This document shows, one piece after another, positions 44,061-45,267 of a stretch of DNA of 64,000 nucleotides (the first letter of the stretch is position 1; every line of letters starts with the position of its first letter). Source of the DNA: the human T2T-CHM13v2.0 reference genome, Homo sapiens; assembly GCF_009914755.1 (NCBI RefSeq), contig NC_060938.1. One strand, given 5' to 3'. Below the pieces are notes generated by a model. That model was not told where the DNA came from. It saw only the letters and a program-made list of their open reading frames with translations, and made no database searches. A program made the translations under genes and the position numbers.

Positions 44061-44440
44061 GTGACCTAAGTTTCTTTGAAGCCAGAGGAGCTTAGGAGGT
44101 AAGGGAAATGGGGTGGGACAGATACCTGGCACTGAGATGGGGCAATGCAGACCCCTAGGTGAGGGGTCTCATCTCACAGTCAGGGAAGACCAGGTTCCAA
44201 AAAGGAAGGGAGCTGTCTCAGGCCAAGGCATCAGCCTCCTTCCCTTCCCTGGTTTCGTCTGTGAGCTGATGTCTCGACCAAGCTGGATTCACAAAGTTCA
44301 ACCACAAGGCGGCTCTATTTTGTCTCCTACTGTTTCTGTAAAATGTGTCCCATGAAGAGCTTCCCCCCGCCCTAGACTCTCCCACAGTCCCAGAGGGCTC
44401 AGGACTCTTTAGATCACTCAGGCAATAAAAGTTCTGTCAT

Positions 44441-44796
44441 CGAACTCCTGACCTCAAGTGATCTACCGGCCTCGGCCTCCCAAAGTGTTGGGATTACAGG
44501 CTTGAGCCACCGCACCGAGCCAAAAAAAATACAGAACACTTCATGAATTTGTGTGTCGTCCTTGCACAGGGACCAGCCCAGGCAACATGGTGAAACCCGA
44601 TCTCTACTAAAAATACAAAAAAAGTTAGGCGGGCATGGTGGTGGGTGCCTGTAATCCCAGCTACTCGGAAGGCTGAGACAGGAGAATCACTTGAACCCAG
44701 GAGGCGGAGCTTGCGGTGAGCCGAGACCGCGCCATTGCAGTCCAGCCTGGGCAACAGAGCGAGACTCTGCCAAAAAAAAAAAAAAAAAAAAAAAAA
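44441..44796 (+). mobile_element. 5'-inverted Alu/U6 chimeric retroinsertion
   Basis: Inverted Alu 5' ~80 nt (44441-44521), U6 fragment, then forward Alu remainder (44571-44796) with poly(A); TSD aaaag(t/c)tctgtcatc. Confidence 0.9.
44522..44571 (-). pseudogene. RNU6: U6 snRNA 3'-terminal pseudogene fragment
   Basis: Minus strand reads ccctgtgcaaggacgacacacaaattcatgaagtgttctgtatttttttt versus U6 CCCTGCGCAAGGATGACACGCAAATTCGTGAAGCGTTCCATATTTTT (7 mismatches in 47, four at CpGs). Confidence 0.92.
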
Positions 44797-45267
44797 GCTC
44801 TGTCATCCCCTTAGGCTGCCAGACACTGTGACACTGTCACCTCAGCAACTAAAAGCATCTTATACCTTGACATCATCAAAACTTCCAATGTGATTTAAAG
44901 TGAAATCTTTTCCCATCCTGTGCAGGGCCTACTGGCCCTGAGATGAGATCAGCCAGGGCAGGGGGTCTGCTTCACCTTCCCTTCCCTTCCCCTTCCCTCT
45001 TCCCCTGCCCTTGACCAACTGCCCCCCAGGCAGGTCCTGTTCCCTGCAGGACAGGGGAGCCTTGGAGCAGGGCTGGCCCCCTCACTGTGCTGAGCTCACA
45101 CAGGGTCCATGGGACATACACCTCGGCAAGTAGAGGCCACGTCAATGCGGCCAGCTCAGCTGTCAGGCAACTTTTATTCCTCTCAGACAGGAGCTGGCCA
45201 GTAGGTCCCCTGTGTCCACCCTGAAAGGAACAGGCAGGAAGCACCTCCCACTAAATTTGAGGTGGGG

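What the first reader, a model, noticed from the sequence alone, without database searches (positions are those of the whole stretch)
44427..44807. Single retro-insertion combining Alu 5' inversion (twin priming) with a U6 snRNA template switch
Seen: TSD aaaagttctgtcatc (44427-44441), reverse-complement Alu 5' end (44441-44521), reverse-complement U6 3' ~50 nt (44522-44571), forward Alu starting gaccagcc, poly(A), then TSD aaaagctctgtcatc (44793-44807). The inverted piece ends at Alu ...GAGTTCGA and the forward piece starts at the very next consensus base GACCAGCC. The U6 oligo-U end abuts Alu position 1. U6 (ggggcca) and Alu (gagacca) are micro-homologous at the other junction. Established: twin priming is common for L1 but uncommon for short Alus, and U6 chimeras are mostly U6/L1. 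Inference: second-strand-primed RT copied the Alu to its 5' end and continued onto U6, either by template jump or from a pre-ligated U6-Alu RNA. This tripartite inverted chimera may be informative about how U6 chimeras form.
Basis: partly seen in the sequence, partly recalled or inferred. Interest (0 to 1): 0.8.

Follow-up and report, generated by a model that had tools for sequence, protein, structure and literature searches.

The report
Inverted Alu insertion carrying a U6 fragment
An old jumping-gene insertion in a gene-poor stretch of human chromosome 14 is one Alu copy whose first 82 bases were written backwards together with the tail half of U6 RNA, a rare molecular fossil that shows two known copying accidents happening in a single event.

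Summary
A 15-bp target-site duplication (one mismatch) brackets, in order:
- Alu nt 1-82, inverted;
- eight T and then U6 nt ~61-107, inverted;
- Alu nt 83 to its end, forward, with a 25-A tail.

The nick site is TTTT/A. The inverted and forward Alu pieces abut exactly in 10 of 10 reference Alus. Non-CpG divergence is about 6%, 7.7% and 7.6% for head, U6 and body.

The best reading is one L1-mediated event with twin priming on a single Alu RNA. The top-strand-primed cDNA ran to Alu nt 1 and continued onto the 3' end of an oligo-uridylated U6. It then joined the first cDNA through a 5-of-7 microhomology.

A template jump is favoured over RNA ligation, but this is not proven.

A pattern-limited census of this genome found four direct U6-oligoT-Alu(nt 1) chimeras, and only this one is inverted. 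Four validated 5'-inverted Alus carry no filler, and 0 of 150 pattern hits showed U6 filler.

Each component is already published. I did not find the combination in print.

No primate orthologue could be examined. This is a neutral fossil of moderate interest.

The parts
44423..44431 (-). First-strand (bottom-strand) L1 endonuclease target, read on the minus strand as CTTTT/ATTG, a TTTT/A-type site
   Evidence: Read directly. The consensus TTTT/AA is quoted in Kojima 2010.
44427..44441 (+). 5' target-site duplication AAAAGTTCTGTCATC
   Evidence: 2 matches in the window, 0.05 expected.
44440..44521 (-). Inverted Alu 5' segment, nt 1-82 by count of this copy. Its last two bases, GA, overlap the TC at the end of the TSD and form a 2-nt priming microhomology.
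44522..44529 (-). Eight T on the minus strand, the U6 oligo-U tail. The U6 gene encodes five, so three are extra.
   Evidence: The genomic U6 copy L006 has T5 and then ACATC.
44530..44571 (-). U6 snRNA nt ~61-102, inverted relative to the poly(A)-bearing Alu and in the same sense as the inverted Alu head
44569..44575 (.). Inversion-junction microhomology GGGACCA. U6 and Alu share 5 of 7 positions here. 44570 is U6-type and 44572 is Alu-type.
   Evidence: Alu copies show GAGACCA.
44571..44771 (+). Forward Alu body, from nt 83 to the 3' end
   Evidence: NCBI masks 44569-44805 (hub table).
44772..44796 (+). Poly(A) tail of 25 A. The last four are shared with the 3' TSD.
44793..44807 (+). 3' target-site duplication AAAAGCTCTGTCATC

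Best explanation
This is a single L1 ORF2p-mediated retro-insertion of one Alu RNA, resolved by twin priming with U6 snRNA captured at the inversion junction.

Proposed steps:
1. The bottom strand was nicked at a TTTT/A site and primed on the Alu poly(A). This first cDNA copied Alu back to nt 83.
2. The top strand, cut 15 bp downstream, annealed by its terminal TC to Alu nt 81-82 (GA) and primed a second cDNA. The second cDNA copied nt 80/82 down to nt 1.
3. At the 5' end of the Alu RNA the reverse transcriptase continued onto the 3' end of a U6 snRNA with about 8 terminal U. It copied U6 back to about nt 61. I favour an end-to-end template jump here.
4. There the second cDNA end (GGGGCCA sense) paired with the first cDNA end (complement of GAGACCA), and the two were joined.

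The result is 5'TSD - inverted Alu 82..1 - inverted U6 107..61 - forward Alu 83..end - A25 - 3'TSD.

Shown: the anatomy, the hallmarks, the contiguity and the equal divergence of the parts. Inferred: the order of steps, and a jump rather than ligation.

The element has no detectable function. It is a neutral fossil of roughly AluS age; the subfamily and the age are recalled estimates.
For: L1 hallmarks: a 15-bp TSD with one mismatch, found at only these two sites in the window (0.05 expected), a 25-A tail and a TTTT/A nick site.

Same RNA molecule: the inverted head and the forward body are exactly adjacent in 10 of 10 reference Alus. In an ad hoc consensus of 14 Alus they cover positions 1-80 and 81-278.

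U6 identity: E 4.6e-8 and 40 of 47 identities to genomic U6 over nt 61-107. The U6 3' end is intact, has 8 T and sits directly on Alu nt 1.

One age for all parts: the head has 9 mismatches in 82 columns and the body 21 in 198. Non-CpG divergence is about 6% and 7.6%. U6 non-CpG divergence is 3 of 39, or 7.7%.

Support for the twin-priming mode in Alus:
- Four other 5'-inverted Alus with TSDs were verified in this genome (L083-L086). Their inverted heads end at nt ~78-83 and join directly to forward Alu at nt ~86-96.
- Kojima 2010 reports 2-5 bp microhomology at the 5' junction in about 70% of inverted L1s.

For a jump rather than ligation:
- RtcB ligation needs a U6 2',3'-cyclic phosphate and a 5'-OH partner, and did not join a 5'-triphosphate end (Moldovan 2019). 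Here the join is at Alu nt 1, which is the 5'-triphosphate start of a Pol III Alu transcript (established knowledge).
- The U6 gene encodes only five T, so 8 T implies an extended-tail U6 or untemplated additions.
- One of the four direct U6/Alu chimeras found is inverted, against a background inversion rate of about 0.02%. This suggests the two rare features are coupled. A top-strand cDNA that has no free DNA end to land on would be expected to jump more often.
Against: No orthologous empty site or intermediate allele could be examined. Both flanks are unique in this genome, so no paralogue shows the pre-insertion site.

The priming microhomology is only 2 nt (5 of 8 if an internal 3-nt mismatch is allowed), which chance would often give.

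The jump-versus-ligation argument is indirect. Moldovan 2019 reports 4-8 T at U6/L1 RNA junctions, so 8 T lies inside the range seen for ligated RNAs.

The U6/Alu census was pattern-limited. The patterns required Alu nt 1-15 next to the U6 end and were written so that this locus would match. 'Junction at nt 1 in 4 of 4' is therefore true by design, and '1 of 4 inverted' is a small, biased sample.

The U6 part is 5'-truncated, unlike the full-length U6 typical of U6/L1 chimeras.
Confidence: 0.6

Rival explanations
1. The event is the same twin-priming insertion, but the template was a pre-formed U6-Alu chimeric RNA. That RNA came from RtcB-type ligation, or from read-through transcription of an older genomic U6/Alu chimera. 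The second cDNA then copied across an existing RNA junction and never jumped.
For: RtcB joins U6 to L1 and to other RNAs before retrotransposition, and 4-8 T are seen at the RNA junctions (Moldovan 2019). Genomic U6/Alu chimeras that could in principle be transcribed exist on chr7, chr14 and chr19.
Against: Ligation required a 5'-OH and failed on a 5'-triphosphate end, yet the junction is at Alu nt 1.

No other locus carries this U6/Alu pair. The chr19 chimera shares only one U6 change with it (a C-to-T at a CpG) and has 6 T rather than 8.

An Alu internal promoter starts transcription at Alu nt 1 and would not include upstream U6 (established knowledge).

This reading gives no reason why an inversion, rare in Alus, should coincide with a rare chimera.
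Confidence: 0.22
2. A canonical, non-inverted insertion of 5'-truncated U6 plus a full-length Alu came first. The first ~133 bp (U6 61-107, three extra T, Alu 1-82) were inverted in place later.
For: It would give the same final sequence. A 5'-truncated U6/Alu chimera exists (chr14:28.98 Mb, U6 nt 73-107).
Against: One inversion breakpoint would have to fall exactly on the TSD/insert boundary. No inverted repeats flank the segment to drive an inversion (read). Twin priming predicts this boundary without any coincidence.
Confidence: 0.05
3. Two different RNA molecules served as the twin-priming templates. A 5'-truncated Alu was copied from the bottom strand. A separate Alu or U6-Alu RNA was primed by the top strand, as in the inverted snRNA/L1 chimeras of Doucet 2015.
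For: Doucet 2015 describes seven inverted snRNA/L1 chimeras attributed to top-strand priming on a second RNA.
Against: Exact 82|83 contiguity (10 of 10 references) would be a coincidence of roughly 1 in 280. The head and the body have the same divergence.
Confidence: 0.06
4. Three unrelated insertions (an Alu fragment, a U6 pseudogene fragment and a truncated Alu) happen to lie side by side.
For: U6 pseudogenes followed by independently inserted Alus do exist: L019 on chr10, and sites on chr1, chr4 and chr12.
Against: Those cases have a poly(A) or unrelated spacer between U6 and Alu, and here there is none. The inverted pieces have no poly(A) tail or TSD of their own. One TSD pair brackets the whole unit, and the pieces are exactly contiguous.
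Confidence: 0.02

Closest known systems
U6/Alu chimeric retro-pseudogenes. Doucet 2015 says Buzdin 2003 and Garcia-Perez 2007 reported them; I could not read those two papers. Examples found here: chr7:93,943,6xx (L010), chr19:41,601,0xx (L075) and chr14:28,983,9xx (L071).
   Same: The U6 3' end, with 6-9 T, is joined directly to Alu nt 1 in the same sense. A poly(A) follows the Alu. The chr7 example has one TSD pair around the whole unit.
   Different: In those copies the Alu is uninterrupted and U6 lies at the 5' end of the insert (full length in two, nt 73-107 in one). Here U6 plus Alu nt 1-82 are inverted and U6 lies inside the element, at the inversion junction.
[quoted passage not shown] Reported counts: one case in Kojima 2010, 1 of 5936 in Mob DNA 2025, and 1 of 130 somatic in PCAWG.
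   Same: The inverted 5' segment touches the 5' TSD. The forward 3' segment carries the poly(A). The two segments are adjoining parts of one Alu. Four such elements verified here (L083-L086) have inverted heads ending at nt ~78-83, as this one does.
   Different: In those four, the end of the inverted cDNA (Alu nt 1) joins the forward Alu directly, and in three of them the join lies inside a CCYGGCC microhomology. Here 50 nt of U6 lie in between, and no Alu bases are lost at the inversion point.
Inverted snRNA/L1 'twin-priming' chimeras (Doucet 2015, Fig. 1)
   Same: An snRNA sits in the orientation opposite to the poly(A)-bearing retroelement, within one TSD pair.
   Different: There the snRNA is 3'-truncated, is itself primed by the top strand, and touches the 5' TSD. 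Here U6 keeps its complete 3' end, does not touch the TSD, and was reached only after the Alu 5' end.
Canonical U6/L1 chimeras, explained by template switching (Buzdin 2002, as cited in Doucet 2015) or by RtcB ligation (Moldovan 2019)
   Same: The U6 3' oligo-U end is fused in sense to the 5' end of an L1-mobilised RNA.
   Different: The partner here is a full 5' end of an Alu rather than a variably 5'-truncated L1. U6 is 5'-truncated, and the fusion lies in the inverted arm.
Double and triple chimeric retroelements formed by multiple template jumps (Gogvadze 2005 and 2007; seen only as a search listing and a reference entry)
   Same: More than two template segments are joined in one reverse-transcription event.
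   Different: As I understand those elements, their segments are collinear. Here one RNA is split between two oppositely primed cDNAs.

Membership tests
L1 (ORF2p) target-primed retro-insertion | Target-site duplication flanking the whole insert | tested here: met
   15 bp with 1 mismatch, at 44427-44441 and 44793-44807. These are the only two matches in the window, against 0.05 expected.
L1 (ORF2p) target-primed retro-insertion | 3' poly(A) tail abutting the 3' TSD | tested here: met
   25 A at 44772-44796.
L1 (ORF2p) target-primed retro-insertion | Endonuclease consensus TTTT/A at the first-strand nick | tested here: met
   The minus strand reads CTTTT/ATTG at the 5' edge of the TSD. The consensus is quoted.
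L1 (ORF2p) target-primed retro-insertion | Orthologous empty site with one TSD copy | not testable with these tools
   No primate genomes are held. Both flanks are single-copy in this genome.
Twin-priming 5' inversion | Inverted 5' segment next to the 5' TSD, and a non-inverted 3' segment carrying the poly(A) | tested here: met
Twin-priming 5' inversion | The two segments are adjoining parts of one template, with at most a small deletion or duplication | tested here: met
   0-nt gap in 10 of 10 reference Alus. Positions 1-80 and 81-278 in the ad hoc consensus.
Twin-priming 5' inversion | Microhomology between the top-strand 3' end and the internal priming site | tested here: inconclusive
   Only 2 nt (TC/GA), or 5 of 8 with an internal mismatch. 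This is compatible with the model but weak.
Twin-priming 5' inversion | Microhomology at the inversion junction | tested here: met
   The window reads GGGACCA, U6 gives GGGGCCA and Alu GAGACCA. U6 and Alu share 5 of 7 positions.
U6 chimeric retro-pseudogene | Complete U6 3' end with an oligo-T run fused in sense to the partner's 5' end | tested here: met
   U6 runs to nt 107 and is followed by 3 extra T and then Alu nt 1.
U6 chimeric retro-pseudogene | Full-length U6 (described as consistent for U6/L1 chimeras) | tested here: not met
   Only U6 nt ~61-107 are present. Under the model this truncation is the point where the two cDNAs were joined. One non-inverted U6/Alu chimera is also truncated, at nt 73.
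Inverted snRNA/L1 chimera of the Doucet 2015 type | 3'-truncated snRNA primed directly by the top strand and abutting the 5' TSD | tested here: not met
   The U6 3' end is complete and lies 82 nt from the TSD.
RtcB-ligated U6 chimeric RNA as the template | U6 ending in a 2',3'-cyclic phosphate joined to a 5'-OH RNA fragment | not testable with these tools
   The chemistry of RNA ends cannot be read from DNA. Indirectly, the partner end is Alu nt 1, expected to be a 5'-triphosphate, and the tail has 8 T against the 5 encoded by the gene.

The most novel reading that the evidence does not exclude
Twin priming and U6 capture are mechanistically coupled. In a twin-primed Alu the top-strand cDNA reaches the RNA 5' end with no free DNA end to land on. 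ORF2p therefore jumps end-to-end onto a U-tailed U6 in the RNP and copies it until a microhomology with the first cDNA allows joining. U6 then acts as a bridging template. The locus would be natural evidence that U6 chimeras can form by a true template jump from a 5'-triphosphate RNA end, independently of RtcB ligation.
Probability: 0.3. Interest if true: 0.55.

Novelty: new variant of a known kind. Interest (0 to 1): 0.38.

Why it matters
How U6 becomes fused to L1-mobilised RNAs is disputed. One model is a reverse-transcriptase template switch and the other is RtcB ligation of the RNAs beforehand.

U6/Alu chimeras bear on this question because the partner end is the native, presumably 5'-triphosphate start of a Pol III transcript, and RtcB did not ligate such an end in vitro.

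This locus adds a case in which the U6 sequence was acquired by the second, top-strand-primed cDNA. It also raises the possibility that stranded twin-priming intermediates are especially prone to jump.

It remains one old fossil with no sign of function. Its value is as a worked example and as a search template for a proper census, not as a discovery in itself.

Tried and rejected
Searches that led nowhere:
- A paralogous empty site. Both flanks (242 and 244 bases) match only themselves in the genome.
- The first genome pattern, a short AT-rich U6 end plus the Alu head. It gave 534 hits and was useless.
- A DNA search with the junction. Only 40 of 751 candidates were scored and it missed two chimeras that patterns found later, so it is not a census.

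Candidates rejected:
- L069, L070, L073 and L074 have no U6 next to the Alu.
- L019 (chr10), chr1:109.8 Mb, chr4:74.19 Mb and chr12:51.1 Mb have U6 pseudogenes separated from the Alu by poly(A) or unrelated bases. These are separate insertions.
- Among the inverted-Alu candidates fetched, L087 was cut off by my fetch and L088 is nested in another Alu with no TSD found. Neither was counted.

Papers and notes that could not be opened:
- Buzdin 2003 and Garcia-Perez 2007 are not held. What they report on U6/Alu is known to me only through Doucet 2015.
- The supplementary files showing the published inverted Alus (Kojima 2010 Additional file 2; Mob DNA 2025 Additional File 2) were not opened. They might show whether either case carries filler sequence.

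Not possible or not pursued:
- Alu subfamily assignment, because no Dfam or RepeatMasker library is on hand.
- I considered and dropped a hot spot for top-strand priming at Alu nt 78-83. My pattern selected forward pieces that start near nt 71-101, which biases where the head ends.

Full report
**What is there**

Window 44427-44807 was read on both strands. On the + strand the order is:

| Coordinates | Feature |
|---|---|
| 44427-44441 | AAAAGTTCTGTCATC (5' TSD) |
| to 44521 | Reverse complement of an Alu 5' end |
| 44522-44529 | Eight A |
| 44530-~44571 | Reverse complement of the 3' part of U6 snRNA |
| 44571-44771 | Forward Alu starting GACCAGCC |
| 44772-44796 | 25 A |
| 44793-44807 | AAAAGCTCTGTCATC (3' TSD) |

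The degenerate 15-mer occurs only at these two places in the 64-kb window. The expected count is 0.05, and 1 of 100 shuffles reached two. Read on the minus strand, the 5' edge of the duplication is CTTTT/ATTG. This is an L1 endonuclease-type TTTT/A site (the consensus is quoted in Kojima 2010).

**U6 identity**

Rfam U6 (RF00026) matches 44525-44575 on the minus strand at 35.8 bits. E is 1e-6 in a 2.3-kb scan and 4.6e-8 in a 101-base scan. The score is under the 44-bit gathering threshold because only model positions 55-105 are present.

The window's own genome could be searched, and it gave full-length U6 copies. One of them, L006, has five T and then ACATC after the coding region.

Aligned to three such copies, the window piece covers U6 nt 57-107. 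It has 7 mismatches in nt 61-107, four of them at the four CpG sites. That leaves 3 mismatches in 39 non-CpG positions, or 7.7%.

The U6 3' end is complete and is followed by three T beyond the five that the gene encodes. Alu nt 1 (GGCTCGG...) follows directly.

**Alu pieces**

- blastn of the two pieces against the window's other Alus shows exact adjacency. In 10 of 10 copies where both alignments reach the junction, the inverted piece (taken as 44440-44521) ends on the base before the forward piece (44571 onward) begins. Three further copies were not counted because one alignment stopped short of the junction.
- In an ad hoc alignment of 14 Alus (11 from the window, 3 from other loci), the pieces occupy consensus positions 1-80 and 81-278.
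- By direct count the head is 82 nt. Two of its bases fall in gap-majority columns of that consensus.
- The last two head bases, GA, coincide with the TC that ends the TSD. The inversion point is therefore exact, or differs by a 2-nt priming microhomology.
- Divergence from the ad hoc consensus is 9 of 82 for the head and 21 of 198 for the body. Non-CpG divergence is about 6% and 7.6%. This equals the U6 figure and fits one mismatch in the TSD pair.

**Inversion junction**

At 44569-44575 the window reads GGGACCA. U6 would give GGGGCCA and Alu GAGACCA. Position 44570 is U6-type and 44572 is Alu-type, and the other five positions are shared (Alu copies).

**Mechanism**

Every boundary is what twin priming on one Alu RNA predicts:

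1. First-strand synthesis starts from the poly(A) at a TTTT/A nick and copies back to nt 83.
2. The top strand primes at nt 81-82 through its terminal TC.
3. The second cDNA reaches Alu nt 1 and goes on into the 3' end of U6.
4. The two cDNA ends join through the 5-of-7 microhomology.

The anatomy is shown. The order of steps is inferred.

The primary priming cannot have been on the other side. The opposite end of the insert has no A-tail, and its nick site (GTCATC/CCCTT) is not L1-like.

**Rivals**

- In-place inversion of a canonical U6-Alu insert needs a breakpoint exactly on the insert boundary.
- Two separate template RNAs would make the 82|83 contiguity a coincidence of about 1 in 280.
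- Three independent insertions are contradicted by the single TSD pair, and by the absence of any poly(A) or spacer between U6 and Alu. True side-by-side cases do have such spacers: L019 and sites on chr1, chr4 and chr12.

**Jump or ligation**

The inversion does not distinguish the two. Three points lean towards a template jump.

1. Moldovan 2019 showed that RtcB ligation needs a U6 cyclic phosphate and a 5'-OH partner, and did not join an intact 5'-triphosphate end (passages read). Here the join is at Alu nt 1, the start of a Pol III transcript (established knowledge).
2. The tail has 8 T against the 5 encoded by the gene. However, 4-8 T were seen at U6/L1 RNA junctions, so this point is weak.
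3. The two rare features appear to be coupled, as the census and the inverted-Alu comparison below show.

**Census of U6/Alu chimeras in this genome**

Three patterns and one DNA search (checked by blastn and by reading) found four loci where the U6 oligo-T end sits directly on Alu nt 1:

| Locus | U6 part | T run | Alu |
|---|---|---|---|
| chr7 (L010) | Full length | 8 | Young-looking; TSD CT(T/C)ACACACTTT |
| chr19 (L075) | Full length | 6 | Older |
| chr14:28.98 Mb (L071) | nt 73-107 | 9 | Full length, uninterrupted |
| This locus | nt ~61-107 | 8 | Split and inverted |

In the other three the Alu is uninterrupted (positions 1-277/281 of the reference copy).

The census is pattern-limited. 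It required the Alu head next to the U6 end and was written so that this locus would match. The nt-1 junction is therefore true by design, and the counts are lower bounds.

**Other inverted Alus**

- A pattern for a reverse-complement Alu head followed within 0-30 bases by a forward Alu motif gave 20 hits, with 0 in the reversed-pattern control.
- Six were fetched. Four of them (L083-L086) are 5'-inverted Alus with TSDs of about 12-15 bp (exact in L085, 1-3 mismatches in the others) and A-tails.
- Their inverted heads end at nt ~78-83. Nt 1 joins forward Alu at nt ~86-96 directly, and in three of them the join lies inside a CCYGGCC microhomology.
- The other two fetched loci could not be resolved.
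- With gaps of 31-60 and 61-90 bases, there were 54 and 76 hits. I saw no U6-like filler in any of them by eye. The printed strings are cut at 80 characters, and this locus does not fit the strict head motif.

**Rarity in print**

- Alu 5' inversion was found in 1 of 5936 germline polymorphic Alus, and in 1 of 130 somatic Alus in PCAWG as quoted there (Mob DNA 2025, Table 1 and text passages).
- Kojima 2010 found one case among human- and chimpanzee-specific Alus. In that study 4472 full-length copies are 80.5% of the total (passages).
- Doucet 2015 states that U6/Alu chimeras were reported by Buzdin 2003 and Garcia-Perez 2007 but were never reproduced in assays. The same paper describes a different class of inverted chimera, in which the top strand primes directly on a 3'-truncated snRNA (passages).
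- The 2026 catalogue of L1 chimeras treats L1-terminated events only (passages).
- Three full-text searches listed no title or abstract describing an inverted Alu with U6 at the inversion junction. Of the listed papers I read passages in only five. Buzdin 2003 and Garcia-Perez 2007 are not held.

**Coupling**

By my arithmetic, if inversion (about 2e-4 to 8e-3) were independent of U6 capture, the chance that at least one of four U6/Alu chimeras is inverted is about 0.08% to 3%. This hints that a top-strand cDNA with no free DNA end to land on jumps more readily. The sample is tiny and biased, so I treat this as a hypothesis.

**Verdict**

The thing is a real, rare compound of two known L1-mediated accidents in one Alu insertion. 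It is old (about 7.7% non-CpG divergence; an AluS-era age is my recalled estimate), lies about 580 bp upstream of the nearest annotated lncRNA exon (window 45390), and shows no sign of function.

It is a new variant of a known kind and is of moderate interest. The orthologue test and an annotation-based census would settle the open points.

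Noticed in passing
G000 chr7:93,943,6xx (L010 1250-1680), chr19:41,601,0xx (L075 1239-1624), chr14:28,983,9xx (L071 1235-1554): Three non-inverted chimeras in which the U6 oligo-T end (8, 6 and 9 T) sits directly on Alu nt 1. Two carry full-length U6 and one carries U6 nt 73-107. 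All have more T than the five the U6 gene encodes. The Alus differ clearly in divergence, so these are independent events.
   Followed up: partly
L083 (chr1:168.38 Mb), L084 (chr4:182.06 Mb), L085 (chr7:22.40 Mb), L086 (chr16:8.10 Mb): Four 5'-inverted Alus with TSDs and A-tails. The inverted heads end at nt ~78-83, and nt 1 joins forward Alu at nt ~86-96. In three the join lies inside a CCYGGCC microhomology shared by the reverse-complement head end and Alu nt ~88-94. About 12 of the 20 hits look the same by eye. 5'-inverted Alus may therefore be easier to find in the reference genome than the published rate of about 0.02% suggests.
   Followed up: partly
One search hit list, for example chr1:201,193,510; chr2:47,235,083; chr3:32,673,180; chr9:140,213,383; chr10:60,873,321; chr20:38,658,056: About 12 of 76 hits share one recurrent junction. 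A reverse-complement Alu head end (..GGCC) is fused to forward Alu at about nt 24-28 (AATCCCAGCACTTTGGG). One search shows a similar recurrent fusion at GGCC|GAGGCGGG (about nt 45-48). These look like microhomology-guided inversion junctions or fold-back products at the Alu 5' hairpin. No flanks were fetched.
   Followed up: no
window 44579-44582: The forward Alu reads GCCCAGGCAAC where most Alus read GCCTGGCCAAC. These are three clustered substitutions at ad hoc consensus positions 89, 90 and 92. They remove the CCTGGCC motif that three of the four comparator inverted Alus used for joining. If the source RNA already carried them, that could explain why this event needed a detour through U6. 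It cannot be told whether they arose before or after insertion.
   Followed up: no
L019 1445-1848 (chr10:97.62 Mb); chr4:74,190,581; chr12:51,125,856; chr1:109,815,439: U6 pseudogenes that end in a poly(A) or are 3'-truncated, followed after a few unrelated bases by a full Alu. These are separate insertions that mimic U6/Alu chimeras in coarse annotation.
   Followed up: partly
window 43655-44060, minus strand: Two further Alus lie back to back about 370 bp upstream of the finding (Rfam SRP-model hits). They are ordinary and unrelated to the insertion.
   Followed up: no
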